64,000 nucleotides of DNA from contig NC_091473.1 in NCBI RefSeq assembly GCF_036971445.1, positions 183,892,001 to 183,956,000 of the forward strand, in the 5' to 3' direction. The first letter of the stretch is position 1; each line of letters opens with the position of its first letter. The notes beneath the pieces were generated by a model. The model ran no database searches. It saw only the letters and a program-made list of their open reading frames with translations, and was not told the DNA's origin. This DNA comes from Narcine bancroftii. Its lineage: Eukaryota. Positions 22,196 to 59,484 of the stretch are shown piece after piece. A program made the translations under genes and the position numbers.

Positions 22196-22306
22196 CGCAT
22201 CAAATGTGGCAAGGTTGAAGTGAATACGGACCTTTGCAAACTTCAATCTGCTCCCTCCTCCGGGGAACCTCACCCCGCCCTGGTACAGCAAGAGGCAGGT
22301 ACTCAC

Positions 22307-34174: not shown

Positions 34175-34823
34175 TCAATGCATTCTCTCAGGTGAACTGA
34201 GATAGCTGCTTAATTCTTGAATTTTTTCCCCATACACACCACATGTTACAAGGCAAGTGTGAACTTTGTTCTGATAGAGATAAGCAAAGCTCTGACTGCA
34301 GTCTGAACATTTATACGGCCTCTCTCCCGTGTGGATCTGCAGGTGTCGATGGAGGGTCTCTGAGTATGTGAAACCCTTCCACAGAATAAACATTTATGTG
34401 GTCTCCCTCCCATGTGGATCCAATGGTGTTGATGGAGGTGCCCTGGTCATGTGAAACTCTTCCCACAGAGTGAACATTTATATGGTCTCTCTCCCGTGTG
34501 GATCCACTGATGTCGATGGAGGTGCCCTGGTCGTGTGAAACTCTTCCCGCAGTCTGAACATTCATGCACTCCCTTGTTTGTGAGTGTTTTATCACCATGT
34601 GTCTTTACAAATGCCCTTCTTCTGTCAGATGGTCTGAAGGGATCCTGCCCACGATTACATTGCAAGTCTAAGTTTCCAACAGCAAAAGAAGGCTGTGCCA
34701 TTGACGTTTGTCTGAATGCTTCAAGATGCTGCCTTAAATGCCTTTTAAGGATATCTGTGATGGTAAATGCAAAATTGCAATAAAGGCAAAGATTATAGTT
34801 GCCTTGAGTCACTCGATGTACTG
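34175..34823 (-). pseudogene. PRDM9: PRDM9-like last exon: proximal zinc finger plus disrupted C2H2 array
   Basis: [21 protein letters not shown], then 84-bp TGERPY-linked fingers; TGA at 34447-34449, 1-nt deletion near 34380, degenerate distal fingers. Confidence 0.8.
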
Positions 34824-35327
34824 CTGGAAAAGGAAGCACACTTTCAGTAAACAAAGTTCCCATACAGAAGTAAGAGTAGCAAAGGCTTCAGTATTGATGA
34901 GCTGGCTGGAGATGTTAATTGAAAGAATTAGGCGCTGGTCACCTAATTGCAGGAAGGATACAGATGCTTGATGGAGGATGCAGAGATTTACTGGGACTGG
35001 AGAACATCTCAAGTTGACAGAACTCAGGCTTTTCAGTTTGGAGTGATGGAGGCGATTTAATTGAGGTAAATAAGATTACGACAGGCACAATTAGGATGGA
35101 CAGCCAAAACCTTTTATCAGGGCAGCATTGGGCAATAGCAGGGGACATTTGTTTAAGGTGAGTCAAGGATAAACCTCAGAACTGTGATTTATTTACACAC
35201 AGAGTCATGGGGAGTGGAATGCACTGCCAGGGGTGGTGGTGGTGAAGGCTCGTTCAATAGGGACATTTAAAAGATACTGAGATAGGCAAATTTAAAAGAC
35301 ACTGAGAGACAATTTCGCTGTCAATAC

Positions 35328-35619
35328 TGTGGTGGTACACCACCGGCCTACTGCAGAGGGCAACCTCTGTACCTGCAGGAGTGTAAGGGAACAGGACAAC
35401 ACCTGGCCATCTGTCAATCAGTCAGCCTGAATGGATCAAGCCCCACCGGGTCGGGTGTCAATCACGCTCCGGTATATAAGCCTGTGCTGGCCTCCCGAGG
35501 CCTCACACAGAGTTGTTGGAGCCACAGCCAGCCTGGCTCTGTGGAAATCTTTGTGGATTAAAGGCTGTTGTACAGTCTTTACCTTGTGTGTGTCTGATTC
35601 TGTCTAACAGCGCACCACA
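35328..35619 (+). mobile_element. Short solo LTR (~290 bp), family C
   Basis: TGTGGTG...CACCACA termini, near-TSD aatac/gatac; second copy at 54901-55194. Confidence 0.7.
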
Positions 35620-36096
35620 GATACCACAGTAGTGGGTAGAGTCAGTATACAAGAGGGAAATTGAGAACTTGGCCAACAATAACCTTGCACTTAATGTCAC
35701 CAAAACCAAGGAGCTCAATGTTGACTTCCGGAAGGGAAAACCAGAAGTGTATGATCCAGTGATCAGAGGTAAAGAGAGTGAGCAAATTTAAGTTCTAGGA
35801 AGTCACTATCTCAGAGGATCTTTTCTGTACCCAACACTCAAATGGCATCGTGAAGAAAGCACGTTGGTGCCTCTACTTCCTCGGGAGTTTGTGGAGGTTT
35901 GGTATGACATCAGAGATCCTGGCAAATTTCTATGCATGTGTGGTGGAAAGTGTGCTGACTGGTTGCCCTCATGGTCTGGTATGGGGACCCCGAGTGGAAA
36001 GCCCTGCAAAAGGTGGTGGACACAGTCCAGGACATCACAGGCAAAACCCTCCCCGCCATTGAGAATATCTATGGGGAGAGCAGCAGCGATCATCAA

Positions 36097-36723
36097 TGTT
36101 AGAAACAGAAGTACCTTCACAGAAATTGCTCAAGACAAAAATTGAGAACAAAGAACATTTATTATACAACAATGCAAAGTTGGGTGCTTCCCCTTACCCT
36201 GGGAATACACACATACACTGGGGCTCACCCAACTTTTATACAGTTTATTTCAGTATAGAAGTACCCTCCCCCTTACATTCTTCTGCCTCCTGGATGAGTT
36301 TGGCATTAGGCAATCCTGTCTGCCTACGTACTGTTTCTGTGAACTTGGAGGACCAGGGGGCATCCTGTCAGTGTCCCATCATGTCATTGTCCTTATTCAC
36401 ACCTTCCTGACTCTCAGGGCTGACTAACTTCTTACATGCAGAACTTGCTAATTCTGTCTAAGGCTAGAAGACCCTTATCTTATTCAAACTAACTTTACTT
36501 CCTACATTCTATTATCTATTATCTATCCTTATCTTATTCATACAGTGAACTTGCTGATTCTGTCTAAAAGGCTAGAAGACCCTTATCTTATTCAGACTAA
36601 CTTTACTTCCTACATTCTAATATTTATTTTTATCCTATTCATACTGGCTTTATTCATTACACATATATCAAAACTAGTTTCCTCATCTTCATATTTTTAT
36701 ATCAGTTTTACTCATCTCTCACA
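36097..36723 (-). mobile_element. ERV solo LTR (family B) inserted in a Rex1 LINE
   Basis: Homologous to the proviral LTR at 41241; perfect TSD TCAA. Confidence 0.9.
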
Positions 36724-37606
36724 TCAAGGATCCACACCACCCAGCACACACTCTGTTCTCGCTAATTCCATCAGAAAGAGGTCGAGGTGCTACAAGACTC
36801 ACAACATCAGGTTCAGAAACAGCTGCTCCCCCTCCACCATCAGACTCCTCAACGACAAACTCAATCAGGGGCTCATTTAAGACTCTTACTTTTACACTTT
36901 GTTTATTTCTCTCTGTAATTACGCAGTTGTTTACATACATACAGTTACAGTATATTTTTGCACTACCAATAAGTGGCAATTTTGCCTGGCCCACAGGAAA
37001 AAGAATCTTAGGGTAGTATGTGGTTTCATGTATGTACTCTGACAATAAATCTGAAATCTGATAGGCACATGGATGGAAGAACATTTTAGGGCTGTGGACT
37101 GTGAGGTTGGGAAGGGTAAGATTTATGGTTGAATATGTTTATATAGTTCAACACAACGAGGACTGAAGAGGTTGTTCTATTTTTATTTAGTTTTAGAGAT
37201 ACAGTACAGTAGGAGGTCCTTCTGGCCCAGGTGCCTGCACTGCCCAAATACACCCAATGATCAATTCATCTAACGACCCTGTACCTTTGTTTTGGAGGCT
37301 GGGAGGCAACCAGGGCATCTGTCAAAAGCCCACACAGGCATGGGAAGACGTATGGTCTCCTCACCAACAGCTCCAGAATTGAACGCAGGCCTTTGGCGCT
37401 GGATTTGCATTGCGCTAACTGCTACTCTAACTGTGCCACCACACTGTGATCCAATTTGCTCTACGTTCCAACACAAAATTCTGCAGATGCTGTGATATGA
37501 AGTAAAAAGCACAGAAATGCTGGAGGAACTCAGCAAGTTTCGCAGCATCCATAGGTTGTACAGGTATAATACCGAAGCTTCAGGCCTGAGCTCTTCTTCA
37601 AGGCAT

Positions 37607-38160
37607 TGTGAGAGATGAGTAAAACTAATATAAAAATATGTGTAATGAATAAAGCCAGTATGAATAGGATAAGGGTAGATAATAGAATGTAGGAAGTAAA
37701 GTTAGTCTGAATAAGATAAGGGTCTTCTAGCCTTAGAGAGAGTCAGCAAGTTCCGCATATGTAATTAGTAAGCACTAGACAGAATTAGCAAGTTCTGCAT
37801 ATAAGAGTTAGTAAGTCCTGAGGGTTGGGAAGGTGTGAATAAGGACAAAGGCAGATGAATAAGGACAATGACATGATGGGACACAGACAGGATATCCCCT
37901 GATCCTCCAAGTTCACAGAAACAGCACGTAGGCAGACAGGATTGCCTAATGCCAAACTTATCCAGGAGGCAGAAGAATGTTGGGGGAGGAGGGTACCTCT
38001 ACACTGAAATGAACTGTATAAAAGATGGGTGAGCCCCAGTATGTGTGTGTATTCCCAGGGTAAGGGGAAGCACCCAACTTTGCATTGTTGTATAATAAAT
38101 GTTCTTTGTTCTCAATTTTTGTCTCGAGCAATTTCTGTGAAGGTACTTCTGTTTCTCACA
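37607..38160 (+). mobile_element. ERV solo LTR (family B)
   Basis: TGTGAGAG...TTCTCACA termini; TSD gcat/gtat; TATA-like box and AATAAA inside. Confidence 0.9.
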
Positions 38161-38339
38161 GTATTGAAAAAGCAGGCAGCGTCTGAGTAAAAGCAATGGT
38201 GGGGGAAGCGTTCAGACAAACAGGCAAAAGGTGATAATAGGACATGAAGAAGTGGCTAGGAGAGAGAAAAGTGAGAATTGATATGGGGAGGGGGTGAGCT
38301 CTTTGAATGCCAAGCTGGAGTAAAGGAGACAGACGGAAA

Positions 38340-38690
38340 AGAGAAGAGAGAGGGACCGAGCTGCAGGAAAGGTTCTCCTCCAACCACAGGAGGTGCTCCA
38401 CTTGCACCCACACTTCCTCCCTCACCACAGGGGTCGTGTACTGCATCTGGTGCTCCTGTTTTGATCTCTACATTGGAGAGAGTGGCCGTCGACAGGAAGA
38501 TCGCTTTGTTGAGCACCTCAGCCCTGTCTGCTGCAATAGCAGACATCTCCCAGTGGCCACCCATTTCAATTCCATGCCCCATTCCCTTGCCAACATGCAT
38601 TGCCAGGCTGAGACCACCTGCAAAGTGAAGGAATAACATCTCATCTTTGGTCTGGCACCCCCCAACCAGATGGCATTAGCATTAACTTAA
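38340..38690 (+). mobile_element. Penelope-like GIY-YIG remnant
   Basis: VVYCIWCSCFDLYIGESGRRQEDRFVEHL...PVATHFNS. Confidence 0.8.
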
Positions 38691-39335
38691 CACTGGCAGA
38701 CTGACCTCAGTCTGGCCAAAGCCAGATGATAGGTCTCAGACACCTCCACTTTTTTACCCCTCCAGCTGAACACCACCAAAACCACTTCCTATATCATGCA
38801 TTTTCTCTGAACTCATTACTTCCAGTCATCTCTGTGTTTATATACATTTACTTCTTTGTCTGGTGAAAGATTATGTCAGTCTTTAGAGAGTTTCAATAAA
38901 AATTCAATGTTGATGGAATTATTTCTCCTTCATGTGCCTAAGGAACAGGATAAGCATCAATAATGTTTTTAACAATCCTTCTAGCCAGGGTGATAACCTG
39001 CTGATAAATGGGCGAAGAGAAGCTAAGTGCACGGCAGATAAAATCTCAGGCTGGGAGTTGCTGGGGACAACAGCAGGGACAAAGCACAAAGGTGCAGAGT
39101 GGCTCACTCAATTGATTCAGCTCGAATTACTCCAAGACTATTAATAATGAATTCACTGCATCCACAGGGGGATTATGCTTTTAACAACTCTCACATCGTT
39201 CACTGTAATTCTCTGTGCTTTTATTTACCATCTGTACCACTGCCGCTTGGTTTTGGATAATAAGAAGGAATTCCTGGACACTGGCACAGATTTGTATTTC
39301 TTCCTTTGCAACTAGTGAGGTACCAAAGTCTGGAG

Positions 39336-40263
39336 CAGTGTTTCTCAACTAGGGTTCCTCAAGAGGTCGCTAGGGGTTCCACGAGAAACAGTGATAAATT
39401 GGCTAATTGAGTAATTTTGTTTAATTTTATATTCGTAATTTTACTATACACGGACGGCATATTGCTGGAATAAAGGTTTCAACCTCATATTATTTAAAAT
39501 TATAATAATCACAGGGAATGTACTTAGCGATGTCTATATGGCGCCAGTGTTAAACCACCTTCACTGGTTGGTGGTCAGGACCTGTACGTGGTGGATTCGT
39601 GTATCGTTGAGTGCTGCATTTTTCATCCTCTTGCATGTGTGAGCAAACCTTTTCTTATTTAACAAGCATCAAAAGCAGACAGAAATGGCCTCCTTTCAGT
39701 TGAAAATGAAATCCGTGTGTATTTATCTAAAATTCAATGAAGTATTTGTGTAGCAAAAGACAAGCACAGGTTTCACATTAGAGGAGCAAATCTCACTCTC
39801 TAAATCGGCTTTGAAAATAACATTTCCTTGGCGCATATATTTGTTCATTGGACATTGTACCTTGATTTATCCTTATGCCTTTTCAACATTGTCAATAAAT
39901 TATAAGTTACTGTAATAGTTATCTGCTTTCGTTCATGTGTTACACGCATGTCATATTGGTTATTGATGTTTATTTTTTCTCTGTGTGTTTACAGATTTTT
40001 TTTGAGAATGAAAACCTCGGAGTGAGGTCTCATAAACGAACAGTATTTTTTTGCATTGCCAATAAATTTGACAAAGAAAGGGGTCATTTTTCCTTCAACA
40101 AGTTATCCAAAAAAAATATACAATGCTTACCACGTGAACTACGATAAAAATATAAAAGAGATAGATATTAATAATGGTACATAAGAATTTTTATGCCGGG
40201 GTTCCCTGGGACATGAAAACTATTTCAAGAGTTCCACAAGGGTAAAAAGGTTTAGAAACGCTG
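39336..40263 (+). mobile_element. Non-autonomous hAT (Charlie-like) DNA transposon
   Basis: TIRs cagtgtttctcaac / gtttagaaacgctg; flanks gtctggag/gactagag (near NTCTAGAN); transposase tail LCSKRQAQVSH*. Confidence 0.75.
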
Positions 40264-40880
40264 GACTAGAGGGTGGCTGATGTACTTCAAAACTGCAGGA
40301 GCACGTCGGGGAAGTGCAGACCAGTGAGCTGAACATCTCAGTGGTGGGAACATTACTGGAGGGGATTCTGAGAGACAGGATCAAACTGTGGTTGAAAAGG
40401 CAAGGACCGATGAGGAAGTAGGGGATAGTCAACATGGCTTTGTGTGTGGGAATGTATGTATTGTGGACTTAACTGAGATTTTTTGAAAAGGTTTCAAAGA
40501 GGATGGAAAGAGGCAGGGCAATATATGTTATTTACTAGGATATTAGCAAGGTCCTGACTGTTAGGCTGGCCAGCATCAGCGAGTCCAGGGTGTGTTACCT
40601 AGTTGGATACAAAATTACCTGGGTGGAAGGAGTCAGAGGGTGGTAGTGGAGGTGTGTTTATTAGATTGTAGGCCCACAAACACCAGTGTGCCATAGAGAT
40701 TGAACCTGGGTCCCCTGTCATTTATCATGCCACATAAATGGTTTGGATGAGAACAGGCCCTGATTCTGTGTCACGGAACTCTCTGACTCTAAGATCCTAT
40801 GTGCCACTTTAAACAGCCGCATTTCTATTGTATAAAAACTAAGTTTGCCGGGAGTTTCCCGATTTGATTGGAATCCTCAC

Positions 40881-41072
40881 TTTTTGCTTCCTAACTTGAT
40901 ATCCACCCTGTGGTCCAATGTAATTCCAAGCTCCCTGGCATAGTCATCACTGTACCACACCCGCAACTTGCAGTGAGGAGGAACAGGCTTGCAGGTCCAG
41001 TAATAAATCTTTCCATGGTGCTGGAAGGTGACAAGGTTCTGCTCCTCCTCTTTCCTGGCACAATTCACAAAC
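40881..41072 (-). pseudogene. PRDM9: PRDM9-like PR/SET C-terminal exon
   Basis: [27 protein letters not shown]...[15 protein letters not shown] vs human [27 protein letters not shown]...LLVWYGDEYGQELGI. Confidence 0.9.
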
Positions 41073-41240
41073 CTGGAACACAAGCAAGCAAATATAAAGC
41101 AGACACTTAAAAATAGCAAGAGAATCCATATAACCATATAACCGTTTACAGCATGGAAACAGGCCGTGTCAGCCCTTCGAGTCCATGCCGGTTCACTTGA
41201 ACAACACCACTAGCTCCGCCGCCCTCCTGCTCTCTGCCCA

Positions 41241-44200
41241 TGTGAGAGATGAGTAAAACTAATATGAAAATATGTGTAATGCATAAAGTTAATCTGAATA
41301 AGATAAGGGTCTTCTAGCCTTAGAGAGAAGTCAGCAAATTCCGCATATGTAATTAGTTTAGACAGAATTAGCAAGTTCTGCATATAAGAGTTAGTAAGTC
41401 CTGAGGGTTGAGAAGGTGTGATTAAGGACAAAGGCAGGTTTAGGACAATAAGGACAATGACATGATGGGTCACAGCACAGACAGGATACCCCCTGGTCCT
41501 CCAAGTTCACAGAAACAGCACGTAGGCAGACAGGATTGCCTAATGCCAAACTTATCCAGGAGGCAGAAGAATGGTAGGGGGGGAGGGTACCTCTACACTG
41601 AAATGAACTGTATAAAAGTTGGGTGAGCCCCAGTGTATGTGTGTATTCCCAGGGTAAGGGGAAGCACCCAACTTTGCATTGTTGTATAATAAATGTTCTT
41701 TGTTCTCAATTTTTCTCTCGAGCAAATTCTGTGAAGGTCCTTCTGTTTCTCACAAATGGGGGCTCGTCCGGGATCCCACTCCCTCCACTGACAGAGTGCC
41801 TGACGACGAGGGTAGGTGCACCCCGGCTGATTCAGCTGGACTCACGGACGACGGGTGACTGGTCAGTGGATGAAGCGAGTGATATCCGAGAAGAGGCATT
41901 GAGAACAAACGACGGGAGGATGTTAAGGAAGCGCGCTAGGAATAGCTACTGGATCCCAGTGAGAGGAATTTTACTTACCTGTTAGTATGGGAGGTGTGAG
42001 TAGCAAGGAAAATAGTCCTAAGGAAGGACGGGACGATCAGATAACTAAGCAAAGTCCGTTAGGATTAATGTTATCTGATTGGGGTGCGGGGAGAACCCGC
42101 GGGAAAGACAAACAGACCATGGTCAGGTATTGCTGTCTGGAATGGGTTAAAACCCCGATAAAAGGGAATTCGGTATATTGGTCAAAGTTCGGATCCGATG
42201 AGGACTAACTGGATGTGTCAGGCATTGAACATCTGGCTCTATCAAAACCAAAGAGATAATATTGAGAGCAAAGAATATGCAGCCTGCTGGCTCAGTGGAT
42301 CGGTTGATCAACTGGGTTTGAATGTAAAGGAATGCAAGGACAAGAAGGATGAGGATGTCCCTGAAACACAAGGATGGGATGTGTTACATTCCCTTCCTCT
42401 ACCTTATGCCCCTCCTATGCCGGCTCCTATCTTTCCCCTCTCTCCTATGCTCTACCCTTCTTCACCTTCCCCTCCCCCCCACAGCTAAAGAAAGGAGAAG
42501 AAAGTAGGGGTGGTATGATGACCTGTTCACGAAGTACTAGATTACCACCTCAATTGACAAGAGAGGGAGGAGACTTTGATTCAAAACAGTGTGAGACCCT
42601 CCGGGAGGGAAGGGCAGAACCCTTTGATTCATTTCCCGGAGAGCAGGAATCTAGACATTATAAAGGAGAGGATAAGCCAGAAATTAACTGGATGAGACCT
42701 TTACGGGAAGTTCCCATGGGAGGGGGGGTCTCAGTTTCGTAAATGTGCCCCTGACTAGTAAGGAGGTGCATAATTTTAAGAGAGAATGCCCAATAAACAG
42801 AAAGGAAAGGCTAAGATTTTGATGCAGGCAGTCAAGGAAGTCGTGGAGGAACAGCAAGGAAAGGGTAGGGGCTGTGTGGCAGCTCTTGGACATTGGGAGG
42901 AGTTCCGGGAGTGGGAGAGTAGAGACTAGAGCAGGGGCAAGGGTAGAGGGGAATTCCGGGGATGACGACCGTTCCCGGGACCTCGTGGTAATCCAGGTAG
43001 GAATTGGGAAATAGGAGCATTAGTTTGCTACCATTGTAAAAAGGAGGGACATTTTAAGAGAGAATGCCCAATGCAAGCCAGGGAGACGTGATCTTACGCA
43101 CTGATGGAAGCAGATTATGAATAGGAGGGTCACAGTTCTCAGTCAATACACACTGTGGGGCTGCACGGAGAACCATTGGTAAATTTAAGCATAGAACCCC
43201 ATAGTGACAAGATGACCTTTTTAGTAGATTCTGGGGCAGCCCGGTCTAGTATTTTACAACCACCCGAGGGTGTTAAAATAGAAGGGACAGTGATGATTTC
43301 GGGAGTGGGAGGAACAGATTTTATGGTCCCTGTATTAAGGGATGTAAGAATAGAAATGGGAGAGAAGATAGTAACGGAGGACATTCTACTAGTTCCCCAA
43401 GCTGGAGTTTGTTTGTTAGGACGAGATTTACAGGACCAATTGGCTATCGGCACCAGACCACAGGAATCAGGTATTGGGGTTCAATTGTATGTATTAACCG
43501 AGGAGGATCGGGAACTAATAAATCCTGGAGTATGGGCAAAAAGAAGCAATAGAGGAGTGTTAGATATTCCTCCCCTGCAAGTTACTTTAAAAGATCCTGA
43601 GCAAGTAATTAGACGAAAGCAGTATCCAATTCTGATGGCTGGCCGAAAGGGGCTGCAGCCAGTAATTGACCAGTTGGTGAAAGATGGTATACTCGAACCT
43701 TGTATGTCACCTTTTAATACCCCTACCCCTGAGGCTAACGACTCAGAAAGGGACTTTCTGCCTCTCTATACGAATTAAAACGGAAGGGTTTATTAGCTCA
43801 AAACCCACCCCTGGAGCATCCTATTCATTTTATTAAATCTGTTGATTGGGTATATAAGCATGGCAAGATCACCAACTAAAACCTGTCTAGGACGGCCCCT
43901 ATTGTGTACTTTTGATTACAGACACTGCAGTGCGAATGAAAGAAAAGGGGTGGACTCACATAGAACGATTTAAACAAGCTGCTGATCCACGGACTAACGA
44001 CATTGATAATCTACCCTCCACCTGGTGTGCAGTCCTTCATCCTTCTGATCTGAAAGTTACACTACGCGGGGAAAAAGTGCTGTAATGCTATTTTTACGAT
44101 TTGTTGTTATGTTTACTTGTTGGTTCCCAATTTTTGGGAAATCACCAAATTGCTCATGATGTATTAAGTCCTCCTGGAACAGGGGCAGCAGAGGTGACAA

Positions 44201-47216: not shown

Positions 47217-47284
47217 CTCATCCAGTTTGATTTAAATTTGTCCTGGGCATCAATGTATTCAATGTTGTTGTTTATCCTGTTGAT
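47217..47284 (-). pseudogene. PRDM9: PRDM9-like PR/SET 68-nt exon
   Basis: INRINNNIEYIDAQDKFKSNWMR vs human [23 protein letters not shown]; acceptor tctctag, donor gtaagg. Confidence 0.9.
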
Positions 47285-47933
47285 CTAGAGAAAGATTTCG
47301 AGATACAAACAAGATTAATAAAGTCAAGTTTATGGTCATCTGATTTTAAAATTACAACCTGATGAAATAACATTCTCTGGTCCTCAGCGCACAACACGCA
47401 GACAAACAACCAAACATAACATAAATGCAGACAAAGAATATATGTGCAGGACAAGCATTCATATACACAAAAAAAAATTTTTGTTTCATGAGTATGAGAA
47501 TCAGGGTTAACATGAGCAGCTCCTTTGGTCATTCAGCATTCTCACTGCCCATGAAAAGGAACAGTTCCTCAGTCTGGTGCTGGCTCTGATATTCCTCTAT
47601 CTCTTGGGAGCAGCTGAAAGATGCCATGTGGAGGGTTGAAGAGATCCTCAATGATTTTGCGTGCCCGCTTCAGATAACGCTCCCAGTAGATCACATCGAT
47701 GGGATGCGGGACTCCATTGATCCTCTCTGCCACTCTTATGGTCGTGTGGATTGACCTCTGATCCATTTCTCTGCAACAACTGTTACACACTGTAAAGCAG
47801 CCGGCCAGGAGACTTTCAATGGAGCTCCTGTAGGAGGATGACATGATGGTGGCTGGTAGCCTTGCTCATTTCAGTCTTCTCAGGAAATGCAGTGGCTGTT
47901 GCACCTTCCTTACAAGTGAGGAGATGTTGAGTG

Positions 47934-50900
47934 AGGCAGCCTCAGTCGAGTGAGGTAGGCGGAGGCCCCGGTCCGGGCAGGGAGTGGGAGGCGGCGGCCC
48001 CAGTCCGGGCACAGGGAGAGCAGCAGCGGCCCCGGCCCCGGTCCGGGCGAAGGGTAGGCGGCGGCGGCCCCGATCCGGGCAGGAGCAAGGGGGAGTCGGC
48101 GGCCCTGGCCTCGGTCGAGTGAGGCAGGCGGAGGCCCCGATCCGGGCAGGGAGTGGGAGGCGGCGGCCCCAGTCCGGGCACAGGGAGAGCAGCAGCGGCC
48201 CCGGCCCCGGTCCGGGCGAAGGGTAGGCGGCGGCGGCCCCGATCCGGGCAGGAGCAAGGGGGAGACGGCGGTCCCGGCCTCAGTCGAGTGAGGCAGGCGG
48301 AGGCCCCGATCCGGGCACAGGGAGAGCTGCGGCGGCCTCGGCCCCGGTCCGGGCAGTATGGACCGACCTAGGAGGGGAGGCAGACCCCTCCAGCCCGGGT
48401 AAGAAACCTGCATAGGACAAGGCCACTCCGATATAAAACCTACGACCCAAGGACCTCGCTGCCACGTCCCAGCTTGCTCGGCCACGGCACACGAACCATG
48501 GGTGTAAAGGGTGGGGCCAGTACTGCGCACACTGCACTCCACCTAAAAGCTCCTTTGCGCAGGCCCGAGGACAGGTCCACGTCCTCCCCCTCCACGTCCT
48601 CCCCCTCCACGTCCTCCCCCTCAAAAGATGCTCACAAACTCAAGCTAGCATGCTGGAACATCAGAACCATGCTAGACAAGGCTGACAGCCACCAACCTGA
48701 ACGTCGGTCTGCCCTCATCGCACATGAACTCCTCAGACTTGACATCGACATAGCCGCTCTCAGTGAAGTCCGCCTGGCAGATGTAGGCAGCCTCCAAGAA
48801 CGCGGCGCGGGCTACACACTCAACTGGTCTGGCAAGCCTTCGGATGAACGACACCTATCTGGTGTAGGCTTCATGGTCAAGAGCTTCATTGCCTCCAAAC
48901 TCGAAAACCTTCCGACAGGCCTCTCGGACCAAATCATGTCCATGCGACTCCCCCTTCAAAACAAGCGTCACATCACCCTCATCAGTGTCTATGCTCCAAC
49001 CCTCCAGGCGGAACCAGCAGAAAAGGACAAGTTCTACACCGACCTGCGCAACCTCATCCAACGCACCCCTACAGCCGACAAGGTTGTCAGCCTGGGCGAC
49101 TTCAACGCTCGTGTCGGCAAAGACTCAGAAACCTGGCCAGGAATCCTGGGCAAGCATGGCGTCGGCAAGTGCAACGACAATGGGCGCCTCCTGTTGGAGC
49201 TCTGCGCAGAACAGCGGCTTGTCATTACAAACACCCTTTTTCAGCAGAGGGACAGCCTTAAGACCACCTGGATGCATCCCCGATCCAAACACTGGCATCT
49301 CCTGGACTACATCCTGGTGCGAGAAAGTGACAAACGAGATGTGCTCCACACCAGGGTCATGCCTAGCGCGGAATGCCACACTGACCACCGGCTGGTTCGC
49401 TGCAAGCTCAACCTTCACTTCAAGCCAAAGCCCAGGAACAGTAAAGCCCCCAGAAAGAGGTTCAATGTTGGAAACCTGCAGTCAGACGAAGCGAGAGGAG
49501 ACTTCCAAGAAAACCTCAAAGCAAAGCTCGACGATGCAACCCGCCTCACGGACCCGTCCCCTGAAACCCTCTGGGATCAGTTGAAGACTACCATACTGCA
49601 ATCCACTGAAGAGGTACTGGGCTTCTCCTCCAGGAAAAACAAGGACTGGTTTGATGAAAACAGCCAGGAAATCCAGGAGCTGCTGGCAAAGAAGCGAGCT
49701 GCCCACCAGGCTCACCTTACAATGCCGTCCTGTCCAGAGAAGAAACAAGCCATCCATCGCGCATGCAGCCATCTTCAGCGCAAACTCCGGGAAATCCAAA
49801 ACGAGTGGTGGACTAGCCTCGCCAAACGAACCCAGCTCAGCGCGGACATTGGCGACTTCAGGGGTTTCTACGAGGCTCTAAAGGCTGTGTACGGCCCCTC
49901 ACCCCAAGTCCAAAGCCCGCTGCTCAGCTCAGATGGCAAAGTCCTCCTCAGCGACAAGATCTCCATCCTCAACCGATGGTCAGAACACTTCCAATCTCTT
50001 TTCAGTGCCAACCGCTCAGTCCAAGATTCCGTCCTGCTCCAGCTCCCTCAACAGCCCCTAAGGCTAGAGCTGGATGAGGTCCTCACCCTGGATGAGACAT
50101 ATAAGGCAATCGAACAACTGAAAAGTGGCAAAGCAGCTGGTATGGATGGAATCCCCCCAGAGGTCTGGAAGGCTGGCGGCAAAACTCTGCATGCCAAACT
50201 GCATGAGTTTTTCAAGCTTTGTTGGGACCAAGGAAAACTGCCTCAGGATCTTCGTGATGCCACCATCATCACCCTGTACAAAAACAAAGGCGAGAAATCA
50301 GACTGCTCAAACTACAGGGGAATCACGTTGCTCTCCATTGCAGGCAAAATCTTCGCTAGGATTCTACTAAATAGAATAATACCTAGTGTCGCCGAGAATA
50401 TTCTCCCAGAATCACAGTGCGGCTTTCGCGCAAACAGAGGAACTACTGACATGGTCTTTGCCCTCAGACAGCTCCAAGAAAAGTGCAGAGAACAAAACAA
50501 AGGACTCTACATCACCTTTGTTGACCTCACCAAAGCCTTCGACACCGTGAGCAGGAAAGGGCTTTGGCAAATACTAGAGCGCATCGGATACCCCCCAAAG
50601 TTCCTCAACATGATGATCCAACTGCACGAAAACCAACAAGGTCGGGTCAGATACAGCAATGAGCTCTCTGAACCCTTCTCCATTAACAATGGCGTGAAGC
50701 AAGACTGTGTTCTCGCACCAACCCTCTTTTCAATCTTCTTCAGCATGATGCTGAACCAAGCCATGAAAGACCCCAACAATGAAGACGCTGTTTACATCCG
50801 GTACCGCACGGATGGCAGTCTCTTCAATCTGAGGCGCCTGCAAGCTCACACCAAGACACAAGAGAAACTTGTCCGTGAACTACTCTTTGCAGACGATGCC

Positions 50901-51878
50901 GCTTTAGTTGCCCATTCAGAGACAGCTCTTCAGCGCTTGACATCCTGCTTTGCGGAAACTGCCAAAATGTTTGGCCTGGAAGTCAGCCTGAAGAAAACTG
51001 AGGTCCTCCATCAGCCAGCTCCCCACCATGACTACCAGCCCCCCCACATCTCCATCGGGCACACAAAACTCAAAACGGTCAACCAGCTTACCTATCTCGG
51101 CTGCACCATTTCATCAGATGCAAGGATCGACAATGAGATAGACAACAAACTCGCCAAGGCAAATAGTGCCTTTGGAAGACTACACAAAAGAGTCTGGAAA
51201 AACAACCAACTGAAAAACCTCACAAAGATAAGCGTATACAGAGCCGTTGTCATACCCACACTCCTGTTCGGCTCCGAATCATGGGTCCTCTACCGGCATC
51301 ACCTATGGCTCCTAGAACGCTTCCACCAGCGTTGTCTCCGCTCCATCCTCAACATCCATTGGAGCGCTTTCATCCCTAACGTCGAAGTACTCGAGATGGC
51401 AGAGGTCGACAGCATCGAGTCCACGCTGCTGAAGATCCAGCTGCCCTGGATGGGTCACGTCTCCAGAATGGAGGACCATCGCCTTCCCAAGATCGTGTTA
51501 TATGGCGAGCTCTCCACTGGCCACCGTGACAGAGGTGCACCAAAGAAAAGGTACAAGGACTGCCTAAAGAAATCTCTTGGTGCCTGCCACATTGACCACC
51601 GCCAGTGGGCTGATATCGCCTCAAACCGTGCATCTTGGCGCCTCACAGTTTGGCGGGCAGCAACCTCCTTTGAAGAAGACCACAGAGCCCACCTCACTGG
51701 CAAAAGGCAAAGGAGGAAAAACCCAACACCCAACCCCAACCAACCAATTTTCCCCTGCAGCCGCTGCAACCGTGTCTGCCTGTCCCGCATCGGACTTGTC
51801 AGCCACAAACGAGCCTGCAGCTGACGTGGACTTTTACCCCCTCCATAAATCTTTGTCCGCGAAGCCAAGCCAAAGAAG
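47934..51878 (+). mobile_element. Full-length RTE-clade LINE
   Basis: Flanking direct repeat acaagtgaggagatgttgagtg (47912-47933, 51879-51900); GC-rich 5' monomers; interrupts a Rex1 LINE. Confidence 0.95.
48474..51824 (+). CDS. RTE ORF: APE endonuclease + reverse transcriptase + C-terminal zinc finger
   Basis: 1116-aa open frame; WNIRT, GDFNA, TDH (APE); FVDLTKAFD, LFADD (RT); CxxC..H...C tail; first ATG ~48498. Confidence 0.95.
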   Translation: MLGHGTRTMGVKGGASTAHTALHLKAPLRRPEDRSTSSPSTSSPSTSSPSKDAHKLKLACWNIRTMLDKADSHQPERRSALIAHELLRLDIDIAALSEVRLADVGSLQERGAGYTLNWSGKPSDERHLSGVGFMVKSFIASKLENLPTGLSDQIMSMRLPLQNKRHITLISVYAPTLQAEPAEKDKFYTDLRNLIQRTPTADKVVSLGDFNARVGKDSETWPGILGKHGVGKCNDNGRLLLELCAEQRLVITNTLFQQRDSLKTTWMHPRSKHWHLLDYILVRESDKRDVLHTRVMPSAECHTDHRLVRCKLNLHFKPKPRNSKAPRKRFNVGNLQSDEARGDFQENLKAKLDDATRLTDPSPETLWDQLKTTILQSTEEVLGFSSRKNKDWFDENSQEIQELLAKKRAAHQAHLTMPSCPEKKQAIHRACSHLQRKLREIQNEWWTSLAKRTQLSADIGDFRGFYEALKAVYGPSPQVQSPLLSSDGKVLLSDKISILNRWSEHFQSLFSANRSVQDSVLLQLPQQPLRLELDEVLTLDETYKAIEQLKSGKAAGMDGIPPEVWKAGGKTLHAKLHEFFKLCWDQGKLPQDLRDATIITLYKNKGEKSDCSNYRGITLLSIAGKIFARILLNRIIPSVAENILPESQCGFRANRGTTDMVFALRQLQEKCREQNKGLYITFVDLTKAFDTVSRKGLWQILERIGYPPKFLNMMIQLHENQQGRVRYSNELSEPFSINNGVKQDCVLAPTLFSIFFSMMLNQAMKDPNNEDAVYIRYRTDGSLFNLRRLQAHTKTQEKLVRELLFADDAALVAHSETALQRLTSCFAETAKMFGLEVSLKKTEVLHQPAPHHDYQPPHISIGHTKLKTVNQLTYLGCTISSDARIDNEIDNKLAKANSAFGRLHKRVWKNNQLKNLTKISVYRAVVIPTLLFGSESWVLYRHHLWLLERFHQRCLRSILNIHWSAFIPNVEVLEMAEVDSIESTLLKIQLPWMGHVSRMEDHRLPKIVLYGELSTGHRDRGAPKKRYKDCLKKSLGACHIDHRQWADIASNRASWRLTVWRAATSFEEDHRAHLTGKRQRRKNPTPNPNQPIFPCSRCNRVCLSRIGLVSHKRACS

Positions 51879-52091
51879 ACAAGTGAGGAGATGTTGAGTG
51901 TCCACGATAGGTCACTAGTTAAGTGAACCTCAAGGTACTTGGTGCTCTCTACAACAGAGTTGTCGAGGGTGGTCATTCCTGGTCCTCTTGAAGTCCACGA
52001 TCATCTCCTTTATCTTATCCATATTGACTCAGGTTGTATTCTCGCACCGCACCATATCATGAGATTTTTCACCTCTTCTCTGCAGTCCAAC

Positions 52092-53112
52092 TGATATGAG
52101 CCCAAAGGACCCCAAAACCCAGCAGCAATAGACATTCACCAAGATAAGTTGTTTTTAATTATCTTTAAACATGAAAATAGAATCAAACTTTAACTTATCT
52201 CTATACTTAACTAACTCAAATTGACCCCCTTCTAATTCTAAGCACACGTGTATGTAATGTGTGTGTAAATTTAATAAAAGTTCTTTGGTTCACAGTTCAA
52301 TCTCATTTCTCCTTCTTTCAAGTTCTCTGGTTGCAGGCAATTCTTATGCTGTGCACAGAACTGAACATGTATAAAGTTCACCAGGCTTTGGTACTTGAAA
52401 GGTAAATGTTTACTGCTCAGGGTTTGCAGAGAGAGATGTGTTGTTCCAGGATTTCCACAACTGAGGTACCACCATTAATCACCTCAGGATCTTGCTGATG
52501 AAACTTGCCCGATCAGGGTTCTCCAGATGGTAACTTCTTTCTTTCAGGCCATCACAGGATGACAGATGAACAGAATCTGTTCCACTTATTCCAAGAGAAA
52601 CATCAGACTGGTAGCACTTCTAGCCATCTGCCTCTCTGGAGCTTTTCTGTTTCCCACCAGCTTCTCCTGGCTTGCACTGTTCAGCTGCTTTCAGTGTCAC
52701 ACACTGAGAGAGCTTGTGGAAGTCATCTTCTCTCTCTCTCTCTCTCTTTCTCCCTCTCCAACTGCCAACTGCCAGAAAGCCATGTGAATCTCTCACTTCC
52801 AAAAACCCCCACCTTCTTCAGCAAACCACAGGAGTTCTCCTCTCTTGGTCAAGTTGTTGTCTTAGATAAACAAAATCCAGGAGTGACCTTTCTGTAGGTA
52901 CTTTTAAACAGCCAGTTTGTCTCCTCCAAACAATGGTCTATTCATTTCAATGACATCATTTCAATGATCACCTACTTGTGAAATGTGCATAAAATTCTCC
53001 ATAGTTTTTGCAATGTTACTGAATATGAATTCTTCAGTATTTCAAATAAGACCTGTTTTAAAATGTATGCCCACTAATCTTACCAAATTCCTCCCAATAT
53101 TTATCCATTACA
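52092..53112 (-). mobile_element. Solo LTR family A, copy 4
   Basis: Reverse-oriented homologue; perfect TSD CAAC. Confidence 0.85.
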
Positions 53113-54599
53113 CAACTTATTGTTTTTGATATTGAGGCCAACTACTGATGTGTCTTCTGTTAAAGAAAATAAATATAAAGCTTGCACAGATTCTGGTTCA
53201 ATGTTTTAAACTAACCATTCCTTTACCAGTTTAACATGATTTTATTTTTATATTAGACCACTCCAACAGTGACATTTTTTGGCCAAATACAAGAGTTTGG
53301 AGAAACTCAGCAGGCCACAGGAAATAAAGTGTAACTAACATTTCATGCTTGGGCTCTTTGTCAGGTTTCAGGTAAAACAGCCACGCACCTAAATAAAAAG
53401 GTTGGGGGAGGGAGAGGGGAGGAGAAGAGGAGGGAGGAAGAGGCAAGGGGGCAAGCATAGGCTGACAGGCATACAGATGTGAGAGTAGAGAAGGAAACTG
53501 AGAAGTGATGTGCTTGGCAGCGTACCATGAGGAGCTGCAGACACCAGGGAAGCATCAGACTGGCCAGTGCTTGGAATAGAAATTGGAGAACATGACCACC
53601 ACCCCATTGAGAAGGATAACCATGGGAGATGACCCTACAGAGAAGGGGACCACAGCAGGGGACCAGGAAAGGGCATAGAGACTGAAGGACCCACACAAGC
53701 CGCAGGCTGCTGGTGACTTGCGGTTGAAGGAACCACACAGGCTGCAGACTGCTGGAGACTGGCTCATGGCTCAGAACTGGGATTGGAGAGGATGCTGAGT
53801 GCAGGAAGAGCTCAAGCGCTGAAGGCTTTCTGATCATATCAGAAGTTTGGATCTGGAGCTCAGGTTGCCAACGGTTTGAACGTGTGGCTGCAGGAGTGCT
53901 GGAAGCAAATCCACCAGCACTCAGTGGCTCTGAAGGGATCCTCCTTTGCTTCGCTTTCTCTAATAATTTCAGGTGCCCGTCAATGGTTAGGGCAATCCAT
54001 TGTTTGCCTTAGAGCAGATGAAAGTTGAGGTATATCATTTTTATGTATTACACGTGACAGTAAAAAATCTTAAAGCTTGTTGGGGTGCTCTATCAGCTTT
54101 TTCTTTCAGCGTTGAAAATGACCAGCTGTGAAGAACCTATTGGTAACATGGTGCTCTCACCGTTTTCTCTGTTTCATTTGGTTCAAGTCAGATTTTGTTG
54201 ACATTGACAAAATCTCAGTAATTTTGTGGCTGCTGTCTGGGAGAAACATATCACACAATCTCGTCTCAGTTTGTGAACATTTCTGGAAGGCGGCAAGTGA
54301 GAGGAAAAGGAGAGTGTCGCACAGCATAGAGCAAACGTCTTCAACCTCTGCCTGTTTACACCGATAGCCAACTGAGAAGGGAATTGTGATGGAGATTCAA
54401 GCTTGCAGAAAATCAATAGGTCTTGAATTTTCTCTTTATGGATCAGGAAGTTAATAAGCAAGAATGAAAAGAAAAAAAAAAATCACCCATTGAAAATCTG
54501 AAATATGAACATAAAATGTAGGAGATACTCGGTAGATTAAGCAGCAGTTGTGGAGAAAGAAAGACAGTTCATGACCCTTCCTCAGCAGATGGTGCCTAC

Positions 54600-54866
54600 T
54601 GGGCATTTTCTGTCCACTGCTGCTTTGTCATTGGAAACCTCACCTTCATAGGATCCAAAATGAACGCCTCTGGGAATAAGCTTCCCTTCATTCCAGATGC
54701 CAAGACCAGCTTTCTGAATTTTTGACACGGCGATGCTGAGACCCTCTAGAAGAGTTAAACTTGCTCTGTCTGGATGATCGAATTCCACATCGGTGTCCTT
54801 CATGAAGACGGGAGGGCCATGCACAGGGCATTCTTCAATAAAAAAATGTCTCACAATTTTCACAAA
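54600..54866 (-). pseudogene. PRDM9: PRDM9-like zinc-knuckle / PR-SET N-terminal exon (frameshifted)
   Basis: CENCETFF/IEECPVHGPPVFMKD...AGLGIWNE...GVHFGSYEG; 7-base homopolymer at 54840-54846 shifts the frame. Confidence 0.9.
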
Positions 54867-54900
54867 CTGAAACATAAAATAGGAAGAACTAATCAGAATC

Positions 54901-55194: not shown

Positions 55195-55979
55195 GACCCA
55201 AATTAGGATGGCTCCTTTAGCGTAGCGGTTAGGGCAATGCTATTTCTGCACCAGTGACCCAGTTTGGAATTGAGTTTAGAGGTTCTCCACATGTCTGCGT
55301 AAGATTCCTCTGGATACTCCGGTTTTCACCCACATTTCAAAACGTACGGGTATTTTAGGTTAATTGGGTGAACTGGGCTGCATGAGCCAGAAATGCTGGT
55401 CTTGCTATATGTCTAATTAAAAAAAAAAATCAGTTGGTGTTACTGAAGGAGATGGGAGCTTATTTGATCCTATAACATGCAATTCAAAATATAATAATGC
55501 CACAATTCGACTGCTCTGCAGAACTGAAGATGTGTACCTTTTCAAAAATTGTAAGCTGTATGGGAAGGCAGTCCTACCATGAAAGATCAATAACGGCAGA
55601 CGTGTGAATTAACTGCAGTAGGTTATCAGTCAGTCACCATGAATATCTTGGGATAAGATGGGATGTTTTATGCAAAAGGGCGGGCAAATTTAGCTCAAAG
55701 GACATCGATCAACTTAAAGAGAAGAATTGCAACGATAAATTCGGTGCATTAATTGTGCAAACAGGATGAAATGCAGCAAATGGTTCACAGAGCAAGTGCT
55801 GTAGTGAGCTGAGGAGACTCAAAGGAAAGTGCTTTAAAGGATAGAAGTCAAAGCAAGCTATATGAACCAAATAAGTACTTGTAACAAGGCAAGTGAATTC
55901 AGACCATTCAAAGAGATCAGAGATTGAAGAAAGGGTCCACTGCAGAAAAGTAGTTGCAGGGTTTGTAACAAAGTGATTG

Positions 55980-56265
55980 TCCCCAGTGGGCTGATAACGC
56001 CTCAAACCGTGCATCTTGGCGCCTCACAGTTTGGCGGGCAGCAGCCTCCTTGGAAGAAGACCGCAGAGCCCACCTCACTGACAAAAGGCAAAGGAGGAAA
56101 AACCCAACACCCAACCCCAACCAACCAATTTTCCCTTGCAACCGCTGCAATCGTGTCTGCCTGTCCCGCATCGGACTGGTCAGCCACAAACGAGCCTGCA
56201 GCTGACGTGGACTTTTTACCCCCTCCATAAATCTTCGTCCGCGAAGCCAAGCCAAAGAAAGAAAA
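55980..56265 (+). mobile_element. RTE LINE 3' fragment
   Basis: Near-identical to 51600-51878. Confidence 0.9.
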
Positions 56266-56625
56266 CAAAGTGATACATTACCAAATGCACAATTTGCTCA
56301 AACAAAATAACTATTAGACAGAGGACCAATTTTGGCTTCAGAAATCATGAGATGAACGAAAGAGATCGAGAGAAGTGACACCAAGACAGAAGAAAACATG
56401 GCGCTATACAAAAGGGCAACTTTGATCTGAATTTGTGGACAAACAGAAACAACATTCTTTCTTCTTTTCACAATGTCTGAATTTATGCAGTGAATTGCAC
56501 TGCTCTTCTCTAAAAATAGGCACAAAAAGTTTACCATTCAATGTCAGATTCCCAGGTATTTTAAAAATTCAAGAAGGACCATCCAATTCTGAGGGAATAT
56601 ACATGTGATTTCTTGTATATTTCTT

Positions 56626-59198
56626 TTTTTTAAAAATTTTTTATTTTTCACACCATAAACCACATTAACCATGATACACACTTTTTCCTTTTCAAATATA
56701 TACAGTGCCATTTTCTCCCCTCCCTCCTCCCATCCCACCCTCCCTACCTCCCCCCTCCCGTCCATTTAAAGTACAAAATCTAGGATACATTAAACCAGTC
56801 AAACAATGTTGTCATTCAATAAAAATAAACAAGAAATTCCACTGAGTCAATTCTTTTCATTTCCTTCTCCTTTCGTTAATTTAGGTAGTGAATGTCCACA
56901 GTAGGATTTCTCTATTGTGTTTCATGTAAGGCTCCCATATTTGTTCAAATATTTCAATATTATTTCTTAAACTATATGTTATTTTTTCTAATGGAATACA
57001 TTTATTCATTTCTATATACCATTGTTGTATTTTCAAATTATCTTCCAATTTCCAGGTTGACATAATACATTTTTTTGCTACGGCTAGAGCTATCTTAACA
57101 AATCTTTTTTGTGCACCATCCAAATCAATTCCAAATTCTTTGTTTTTTATGTTACTTAGGAGGAAGATCTCTGCATTCTTTGGTATATAGTTTTCTGTAA
57201 TTTTATTTAATATGTGGTTTAGATCTTCCCAAAATTTTTCTACTTTCTCACACGTCCAGATTGCATGAATTGTTGTTCCCATTTCTTTTTTACATCGAAA
57301 ACATCTATCAGATACTGTTGGGTCCCATCTATTTAACTTTTGAGGTGTAATGTATAGCCTGTGTATCCAGTTATATTGTATCATACGTAACCTCGTATTT
57401 ATTGTATTTCTCATCGTTCCAGAACATAACTTCTCCCATGTTTCCTTTTTTATCTTTATATTTAAATCTTGTTCTCATTTTTGTTTAGTTTTACCATTTG
57501 TTTCCTCATTCTCCTTTTCTTGCAGTTTAATATACATATTTGTTATAAATCTTTTGATTATCATTGTATCTGTAATCACATATTCAAAGTTACTTCCGTC
57601 TGGTAAACTCAGACTGCTTCCTAATTTTTCCTTCAAGTAGGATCTCAATTGGTAATATGCCAACACTGTATCTTGAGTTATATTGTATTTATCTTTCATT
57701 TGTTCAAAGGATAAGAATCTATTTCCTGAAAAACAATTTTCTATTCTTTTGATCCCTTTTTTCTCCCATCTCTAAAGGAAAGGTTATCTATTGTAAAAGG
57801 GAGTAACTTATTTTGCGTCAAGATTAGTTTTGGTAATTGATAATTTGTTTTATTCCTTTCTACATGAATCTTCTTCCAAATATTGAGTAGATGATGTAAT
57901 ACTGGAGAACTTCTATGTTGTACCAATTTTTCATCCCATTTATATAATATGTGTTCAGGAATCTTTTCCCCTATTTTATCTAATTCTAATCTAGTCCAAT
58001 CTGGCTTTTCCCTTGTTTGGTAAAAATCTGATAGGTATCTTAATTGTGCGGCTCTATAATAATTTTTAAAGTTTGGCAGTTGTAAGCCTCCTTGTTTATA
58101 CCATTCTGTTAATTTATCTAGTGCTATCCTCGGTTTCCCCCCTTTCCATAAAAATTTCCTTATTATTTTCTTTAACTCCTTGAAGAATTTCTCTGTCAAG
58201 TGTATTGGCAATGCCTGAAATAGGTATAATATCCTTGGAAAAATGTTAATTTTAATACAGTTTATCCTTCCTATTAGTGTTAATGGTAAATCTTTCCAAT
58301 GCTCTAAATCGTCCTGTAATTTTTTCATTAGTGGATAATAATTGAGTGTATATAGTTGGCCGAGATTTTTATTTAATTGTATACCTAGGTATCTTATTGC
58401 TTGCATTTGCCATCTGAATGGTGATTCCTTCTTAAATTTTGAGAAATCCGCATTATTCATTGGCATTGCTTCACTTTTATTTACGTTAATCTTGTAATCC
58501 GACACTTCTCCATATTCTTTCAATTTCTTATATAATTCTTTTATTGATAGTTCTGGTTCTGTTAAGTATACTATAACATCATCCGCAAATAAACTGATTT
58601 TATATTCCTTGTCTTTTATTTTTATCCCTTTTATATTATTTTCTGTTCTTATCAATTCTGCTAGTGGTTCTATAGCTAACGCAAACAATAAAGGTGATAG
58701 TGGGCATCCCTGCCGTGTTGACCTGCTTAAGTTAAACTGCTTTGATATATATCCATTTACTGTCACTTTCGCCAATGGTCCCTTATATAATGCTTTAATC
58801 CAATTAATATACTTCTCCGGTAAACTGAATTTTTGCAATACTTTGAATAAATAATTCCATTCTACTCTGTCATAGGCCTTCTCTGCGTCTAAAGCAACTG
58901 CTACTGTTGGCGCTTTACTCCCTTCTACTGCATGAATTAAGTTAATAAATTTACAAATATTGTCTGTTGTGCGTCTTTTTTTAATAAATCCAGTTTGGTC
59001 TAGATTTACCATTTTCGGTACATACTCTGCTAATCTGTTTGCTAATAGTTTAGCTATTATCTTATAATCTGTGTTAAGTAATGATATTGGTCTATATGAT
59101 GCTGGTGCGAGTGGATCTTTCCCTTGCTTTAGTATTACTGTAATTATTGCTGTTTTACATGAATCTGGTAAGCTTTGTGTTTTATCAATCTGGTTGAT
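56626..59198 (-). mobile_element. 5'-truncated L1 LINE (ORF2 RT and C-terminal region)
   Basis: YRPISLLN, DAEKAYD, RQGCPLSP, LFADD; A-rich tail; 10-bp TSD TATATTTCTT; frameshift near 57770 and stop at 57475. Confidence 0.92.
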
Positions 59199-59346
59199 TA
59201 TATTTCTTAACATTTTTTTAAAAAATCATAGCCTGTGAGCAACTATAGGATTGCGATCTCAGTGGTCCTGCTACTGAGCCGTCACCACGATACTCTCAAA
59301 AAATTACGGCGGATCTGATGGGAATAGATGGGTGCTTTGGACATAC

Positions 59347-59484
59347 AAAAATAATCGTCGTCACGAAGCTCTTGTTCTTCCGTAAAAATTTTCCTCTCTT
59401 TATCTCTGAGATTATATCTTCTCTTCTCATTCTCTCGGATTGATTGGTCACTTGTTGATCCCAACATCTTTCTGCTGGAGACAG
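59347..59484 (-). pseudogene. PRDM9: PRDM9-like SSXRD exon
   Basis: RRYNLRDKERKIFTEEQELRDDDYF vs human [26 protein letters not shown]; donor gtatgt, phase 1. Confidence 0.85.

What the first reader, a model, noticed from the sequence alone, without database searches (positions are those of the whole stretch)
34175..59484. PRDM9-like gene with conserved exon architecture but multiple inactivating lesions
Seen: SSXRD, zinc knuckle, three SET exons and the zinc-finger exon in human-like order and phase. Lesions: extra base in the homopolymer at 54840-54846, phase mismatch at the 40881 donor, CGA-to-TGA in finger 2 (34447), 1-nt deletion in finger 3, decayed distal fingers, and changes at conserved SET positions (FGPY to FGSY, YRT to YWT, WYG to WYS). 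The tyrosines equivalent to catalytic Y276/Y341/Y357 remain. Known: PRDM9 positions recombination hotspots and has been lost repeatedly in vertebrates. Inference: a recent loss of PRDM9 (or of one paralogue) in this lineage.
Basis: partly seen in the sequence, partly recalled or inferred. Interest (0 to 1): 0.72.

Follow-up and report, generated by a model that had tools for sequence, protein, structure and literature searches.

The report
Dead spare PRDM9 in electric ray
This is a broken second copy of the recombination-hotspot gene PRDM9 in what is very likely the electric ray Narcine bancroftii, whose annotated proteins include an intact PRDM9, so it is likely an ordinary decayed duplicate and not a loss of the gene.

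Summary
The PRDM9-like gene is there (minus strand, 59741-34168) and is a real pseudogene, with about 11 breaks: 4 stops, 5 frameshifts, a lost donor and the lost 3' end of the first SET exon. Perfect-match contigs bridge the four zinc-finger-exon breaks in two samples and the SET-exon TAG in two samples.

The "PRDM9 lost in this lineage" reading fails. The neighbouring KCNN4-like gene encodes a Narcine bancroftii protein letter for letter. That species has an annotated intact KRAB-SET-zinc-finger PRDM9 on a record of the same length, only 79% identical to the window in the first SET exon. It is this copy's sister in the tree (100/98), and a run of the window's organism holds its exon letters.

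Verdict: an old, redundant duplicate that decayed, as described in salmonids. Not tested: reads over the T7 run, the KRAB exons, ZCWPW1/2, synteny. Low interest.

The parts
59649..59741 (-).
59347..59484 (-). SSXRD-like exon, open frame, AG/GT intact; no Pfam SSXRD hit, as for the intact copy
   Evidence: 76% to P0001, E 9e-15
54612..54866 (-). Zinc knuckle and first SET exon: +1 in the T run 54840-54846, P>L and FGPY>FGSY changes, similarity ends at 54612 so the last six codons (with the conserved G-Y-x-W) are gone; a possible in-phase GT at 54599 would give a shorter, altered exon
   Evidence: not covered by the read check
47217..47284 (-). Second SET exon, open frame, AG/GT intact
40881..41072 (-). 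Third SET exon: A>T, R>W, E>K, L>R, G>S at otherwise invariant columns; extra T at 40917-40918; TAG at 40891-40893; normal phase-1 donor
   Evidence: TAG bridged by perfect contigs in X1 and X6
34168..34820 (-). Zinc-finger exon: post-SET finger, three array fingers (TGA 34447-34449 in the second, -1 at 34379-34380 in the third), two terminal atypical fingers (+1 at 34224-34233, TAA 34210-34212), natural stop 34168-34170
   Evidence: all four breaks bridged by perfect contigs in X1 and X5, two of them in X6
12433..22627 (-). Downstream neighbour, KCNN4-like potassium channel gene in eight coding exons; used here to place the window in a species
   Evidence: encodes N. bancroftii XP_069798534.1 (P0021, 470 aa) letter for letter within each exon
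57744..59225 (-). LINE reverse-transcriptase remnant in the intron between the SSXRD and first SET exons
   Evidence: Pfam RVT_1 E 1e-41

Best explanation
This is an unprocessed PRDM9 pseudogene with about 11 frame-breaking lesions, and it likely arose by a segmental duplication within the electric-ray lineage and then likely decayed because the other copy, which is annotated as intact, would still direct recombination hotspots. Shown: the lesions, the introns, the sister relation to the intact copy, excess change at conserved columns, and the intact copy's letters in a run of the same organism. Inferred: that the window is N. bancroftii, that duplication came before decay, that redundancy released selection, that the intact copy is active in meiosis, and that the decay is millions of generations old. 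No SET or zinc-finger protein can be made from this copy as assembled: two breaks lie upstream of the SET domain.
For: (1) Species: the KCNN4-like neighbour matches P0021 of N. bancroftii at 100% over the 129-aa query, the only hit of 1221 candidates, and within all eight exons. (2) Intact copy: P0001/P0016 (XP_069796035-39, four isoforms) lie on a record of the same length, 257,710,454, carry KRAB (30.4 bits, cut-off 20.4), PR/SET and six array fingers, and are 79% identical to the window's first SET exon, so they come from another locus. (3) Run X6 of the window's organism holds a contig whose six listed differences at 40949-40980 turn the window's residues into those of P0001. (4) Tree: window + intact Narcine copy form a clade at 100/98 in both trees (35 rows; 25 rows); placing the window outside all intact batoid copies is rejected, p-AU 0.019 (group named after seeing the first tree). 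(5) Relaxed selection: end branch 0.17 against 0.075; 13 of 101 columns invariant in 27 other chondrichthyan rows are changed in the window, 4 of 101 in the intact copy, Fisher p 0.04; leave-one-genus-out controls show 0-7 of 107-117. (6) Lesions are in the reads: contigs with 0 other letters and 0 gaps span 33775-35353 and 40630-40947 (X1), 33767-35019 (X5), 34228-34754 and 40223-40947 (X6).
Against: The intact copy is known from an annotation and a short stretch of one run, not from a genome search of my own (no genome held). X1 showed 0 depth of the intact copy's letters at 40949-40980; the tool warned that not all differences were counted for X1. The +1 T at 40917-18 has only 29 letters on one side, under the tool's 31-letter rule for bridging. 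X1 may be the source of the assembly, and whether S2 and S3 are other animals is unknown, so fixation in the species is not shown. Two intact-annotated Rhinoraja rows show 7 of 117 changes in the control, so the column test alone is modest. Activity of the intact copy in meiosis was not tested.
Confidence: 0.93

Rival explanations
1. Lineage-wide loss of PRDM9: this pseudogene is the only copy and the species has moved to promoter-directed recombination.
For: The copy is truly dead. Complete losses have happened at least 13 times in vertebrates (PMC8892340, passages).
Against: An intact KRAB-containing PRDM9 is annotated in the species that the neighbour gene matches, and its exon letters stand in run X6 of the window's organism. 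Its six fingers are near-identical and differ at contact positions -1 and +3, plus -2, as expected of an active PRDM9 array.
Confidence: 0.02
2. Assembly artefact: a live gene whose frameshifts are homopolymer errors.
Against: Four substitution stops, a 19-nt shortfall in one exon and a lost exon end are not homopolymer errors. Perfect contigs bridge TGA, -1, +1 and TAA in X1 and X5, and TAG in X1 and X6. All four S1 runs hold share 1.00 of 192 sampled words of 33450-35300.
Confidence: 0.01
3. A truncated paralogue or non-coding RNA kept for a new role, like the conserved truncated PRDM9 paralogues of teleosts and cnidarians.
For: The three catalytic tyrosines remain. Runs X5 and X6, guessed to be RNA, hold perfect contigs over the zinc-finger exon. 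Conserved truncated paralogues exist elsewhere (PMC11703093 and 10.64898/2026.09.07.749791, passages).
Against: Frameshifts lie before and after the SET core, the G-Y-x-W stretch is gone, and invariant columns changed about three times as often as in the intact copy. The perfect X5 and X6 contigs run into introns, and no joint between 40881 and 34820 is among the 15 joints shown (1761 were not shown). The runs' kind is only guessed.
Confidence: 0.04

Closest known systems
Pseudogenised PRDM9alpha paralogues of salmonids (PMC11703093, passages read)
   Same: One full-length copy kept per species beside duplicates with stops, frameshifts or missing exons; by that paper's rule this copy is 'likely non-functional'.
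   Different: No whole-genome duplication is involved here; one dead copy is seen, in a cartilaginous fish; whether it is a tandem copy was not determined.
N. bancroftii PRDM9-like XP_069796035-39 (P0001, P0015-P0017)
   Same: Sister sequence, same exon-level architecture from the linker exon to the terminal fingers, 80% identity over 211 columns.
   Different: It has open frames, KRAB, G-Y-S-W and six homogeneous fingers; the window copy has about 11 breaks and three array fingers (units 1 and 2 only 88% alike).
Canid PRDM9 pseudogene (PMC5519329 and PMC8892340, passages)
   Same: A recognisable PRDM9 locus disabled by stops and frameshifts.
   Different: Canids have no non-pseudogene copy; here an intact copy is annotated, so no switch of hotspot mechanism is implied.
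Birth-and-death of Prdm9 in cnidarians (bioRxiv 10.64898/2026.09.07.749791, passages)
   Same: Lineage-specific duplicates with short lives; in the long term one copy stays conserved.
   Different: That work stresses several coexisting full-length copies and old conserved truncated ones; this copy shows no sign of conservation.

Membership tests
PRDM9 orthology group (by descent) | PR/SET domain groups with vertebrate PRDM9 | tested here: met
   Nested in the batoid PRDM9 clade (100/99) as sister of the intact Narcine copy; best PDB matches are PRDM9 ahead of PRDM11 and PRDM4. No PRDM11 row was in the trees.
PRDM9 orthology group (by descent) | SSXRD on one exon, SET on three exons, zinc-finger array on one exon (PMC11703093 Fig 1 legend) | tested here: met
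Canonical functional PRDM9 | KRAB domain | not testable with these tools
   No KRAB match in the 4.2 kb upstream of the linker exon; the window ends at 64000 and no genome is held.
Canonical functional PRDM9 | SSXRD domain | tested here: inconclusive
   The exon is open and 76% like the intact copy, but Pfam finds no SSXRD in either; weak prediction in cartilaginous fish is reported in PMC5519329 (passage).
Canonical functional PRDM9 | Catalytic tyrosines Y276, Y341, Y357 | tested here: met
   TAT 54650, TAC 41002, TAC 40954 align to chain positions 82, 147, 163 of 4ijd_A.
Canonical functional PRDM9 | No frameshift or stop up to the first zinc finger; all SET exons complete | tested here: not met
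   Frameshifts at about 59706, 54840-46 and 40917-18; stops at 59656-58 and 40891-93; end of first SET exon lost.
Canonical functional PRDM9 | Homogeneous tandem zinc-finger array varying mainly at DNA-contact residues | tested here: not met
   Three array fingers, 83% matches by Tandem Repeats Finder, one with a stop and one with a frameshift.
Unprocessed duplicated pseudogene | Introns kept, disabling lesions, intact paralogue in the same species | tested here: met
Unprocessed duplicated pseudogene | Neutral evolution (dN/dS near 1) | tested here: inconclusive
   Only a protein-level proxy: 13 against 4 of 101 invariant columns changed, p 0.04; no DNA of the intact copy was available.
Lineage-wide PRDM9 loss (canid or bird type) | No intact PRDM9 anywhere in the genome | tested here: not met
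Lineage-wide PRDM9 loss (canid or bird type) | Coupled loss or relaxation of ZCWPW1 and ZCWPW2 | not tested

The most novel reading that the evidence does not exclude
PRDM9 turns over by repeated birth and death across sharks and rays, and this KCNN4-linked pseudogene is the ancestral locus, replaced by a relocated daughter. Its three fossil fingers would then preserve an extinct binding specificity, against which old hotspot-motif erosion could be tested in a slow-clock vertebrate. Support so far: several PRDM9-like proteins per species in Rhinoraja (13 listed), Cetorhinus (3), Heterodontus, Mobula hypostoma and Hemitrygon (2 each), mostly grouping by genus. Which Narcine locus is ancestral was not tested.
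Probability: 0.25. Interest if true: 0.4.

Novelty: new member of a known kind. Interest (0 to 1): 0.14.

Why it matters
A true loss of PRDM9 in a ray would have been the first in cartilaginous fish among the 13 losses listed in PMC8892340 (passage) and a new test case for promoter-directed recombination. That is not what this is. What remains is modest: a dead duplicate showing that PRDM9 duplication and decay, described in salmonids and cnidarians, also occurs in electric rays, and a caution that a PRDM9 pseudogene seen in one window says nothing about loss until paralogues are checked.

Tried and rejected
Whole-genome search for other copies and ZCWPW1/2: no genome is held for this window. 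KRAB and earlier exons: no match within the window, which says nothing about their presence beyond 64000. Displaced 3' end of the first SET exon: no G-Y-x-W or Y-S-W codon pattern on the minus strand of 47285-54611, and no useful repeat match for the DNA after the break. Expression: no RNA holder is listed as RNA on record; X5-X7 are only guessed RNA and are contigs, so depth was not used to rank the two copies; X5 has almost no depth over 40758-41018 and X7 has no perfect piece among those shown, neither of which is evidence. The 85% likeness setting flooded tables 3-5 and 7 with repeat copies (236 differences and 1761 joints not shown). The contact-position labels printed were off by one and were redone. 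A search for a paper on the role of the lost tryptophan gave only chance hits; the one read was a page number. Earlier findings of this scan: none by place, sequence or words. Literature: no paper on this pseudogene or on PRDM9 copy number in rays appeared in the listings; supplements of PMC5519329 and PMC8892340, which list species calls, were not opened and may bear on which cartilaginous fish were scored. Accession numbers of the KCNN4-like and intact PRDM9 proteins are about 2,500 apart; I considered this as a hint against a tandem pair and set it aside as unreliable.
Full report
Observation. The minus strand carries a PRDM9-like gene from 59741 to 34168. tblastn with the best homologue, N. 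bancroftii PRDM9-like P0001, finds six exons in order: a linker exon (59741-59649), the SSXRD-like exon (59484-59347), the knuckle/first SET exon (from 54866), two more SET exons (47284-47217, 41072-40881) and the zinc-finger exon (34820-34168). The three catalytic tyrosines are present: they align to positions 82, 147 and 163 of the human chain 4ijd_A, a spacing that fits Y276, Y341 and Y357 (my count).

Lesions. Reading codon by codon gives about 11 breaks. Linker exon: 93 nt against the 112 nt implied by P0001, a frameshift near 59706, TGA at 59656-58, and GA where the donor GT should be. First SET exon: one extra T at 54840-46, and similarity stops at 54612, so six codons including the G-Y-x-W found in all 34 other aligned rows are gone; no displaced copy of them was found in the intron. 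A GT at 54599 could serve as an in-phase donor but would not restore them. Finger exon: TGA at 34447-49, -1 at 34379-80, +1 at 34224-33, TAA at 34210-12. The two terminal atypical fingers also end intact shark and ray proteins, so only part of the 'distal decay' is decay.

Are the lesions real? One search found four runs of sample S1 with share 1.00 of 192 words of 33450-35300, and runs of two other samples at 0.91 and 0.40. Laid on 33450-41250, contigs with no other letters and no gaps span 33775-35353 and 40630-40947 in X1, 33767-35019 in X5, and 34228-34754 and 40223-40947 in X6. These bridge all four finger-exon breaks in X1 and X5, two of them in X6, and the TAG in X1 and X6; the +1 T has 29 letters on one side and is not counted as bridged. 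Either way that exon is broken: with the T the frame shifts, without it the TAG is in frame. S1 may be the assembly's source, and S2 and S3 may or may not be other animals. The three upstream exons, including the T7 run, lay outside the one stretch that could be laid.

Is it the only copy? The downstream neighbour, a KCNN4-like gene at 22627-12433, encodes N. bancroftii XP_069798534.1 letter for letter within its eight exons, on a record of 257,710,454 bases. A record of the same length carries PRDM9-like XP_069796035-39, which has KRAB above the Pfam cut-off, PR/SET and six array fingers. It is 79% identical to the window's first SET exon, so it is a different locus. Independently of the annotation, run X6 of the window's organism holds a contig whose six listed differences at 40949-40980 convert the window's residues into exactly those of P0001. 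Against this, X1 showed no depth for those letters; the tool warned that not all differences were counted for X1. The intact copy's fingers differ only at positions -2, -1 and +3, which fits an active PRDM9 array, though activity was not tested.

History. In a tree of 35 rows the window's read-through protein is sister to the intact Narcine copy (100/98) inside the batoid clade (100/99), with an end branch of 0.17 against 0.075. A second tree without ten distant or near-identical rows gives the same pair, and forcing the window outside all intact batoid copies is rejected (p-AU 0.019; the group was named after the first tree). So the duplication is younger than the split from the stingrays and skates sampled; no other electric ray was available. 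Of 101 columns invariant in 27 other chondrichthyan rows, the window changes 13 and the intact copy 4, one shared (Fisher p 0.04); control rows change 0-7 of 107-117. A rough hand estimate from 12 private changes in 100 columns is about 0.05 substitutions per site. At the epaulette shark rate of 7e-10 per generation (95% CI 1.4-14.1e-10; PMC10587355, passages) that is tens of millions of generations, and still millions at a rate ten times higher. This is an inference from another species' rate, but 'recent' does not fit.

Mechanism. The likely course is segmental duplication of the whole intron-bearing gene in the electric-ray lineage, release from selection because one full-length copy suffices, then accumulation of CpG-type stops (CGA to TGA twice, by comparison with neighbouring fingers and P0001), slippage indels and small deletions, and loss of array homogenisation. 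Shown steps: lesions, introns, sister relation, excess change. Inferred steps: order of events, redundancy as the cause, function of the intact copy.

Comparison. This matches the salmonid pattern of one full-length PRDM9 beside pseudogenised duplicates (PMC11703093, passages) and the birth-and-death pattern in cnidarians (10.64898/2026.09.07.749791, passages). Duplications in cartilaginous fish are already mentioned in PMC5519329 (passage). It is not a canid-type loss. None of the 13 losses listed in PMC8892340 is in cartilaginous fish (passage). PMC11600626 (passages) adds nothing on rays. No paper on this locus appeared in the listings; the library lacks most subscription journals.

Verdict. 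A real PRDM9 pseudogene, very likely a redundant duplicate in N. bancroftii: new member of a known kind, interest 0.14. The boldest reading left open is PRDM9 turnover across sharks and rays with this as the ancestral locus (probability 0.25, interest 0.4 if true).

Noticed in passing
proteins P0007, P0009-P0012, P0014, P0022-P0027, P0045: Rhinoraja longicauda has at least 13 listed PRDM9-like proteins, most on one 10.9-Mb record, several with full SET and finger arrays; six of them form one clade. Some may be isoforms or haplotype duplicates. Cetorhinus has 3 on one record; Heterodontus, Mobula hypostoma and Hemitrygon have 2 each.
   Followed up: partly
window 33450-35197: Run X5 (guessed RNA) has perfect contigs over the finger exon, its downstream flank and about 200 nt of intron, unspliced at the 34820 acceptor. 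It could be a non-coding or read-through transcript, or DNA; strand and kind are unknown.
   Followed up: partly
window 12433-22627, minus strand: The KCNN4-like channel is very divergent: its 129-aa exon found only its own protein among 1221 candidates. Its pore motif reads TIGYGD. Of possible interest in an electric ray.
   Followed up: no
window 19136-20347, minus strand: Open 404-aa retroelement integrase frame (Integrase_H2C2 and rve) inside an intron of the KCNN4-like gene.
   Followed up: no
window 11774-11905: A run of 132 N inside purine-rich tandem repeats just downstream of the KCNN4-like gene.
   Followed up: no
window 47939-48356: GC-rich, CpG-rich tandem array (period 169, 2.2 copies, 96% matches) in the intron between the first and second SET exons.
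   Followed up: no
protein P0018 (XP_062913384.1): A 1979-aa Mobula hypostoma protein named 'zinc finger protein 850-like' holds a full PRDM9 SET region; PRDM9 copies in rays can hide under generic names.
   Followed up: partly
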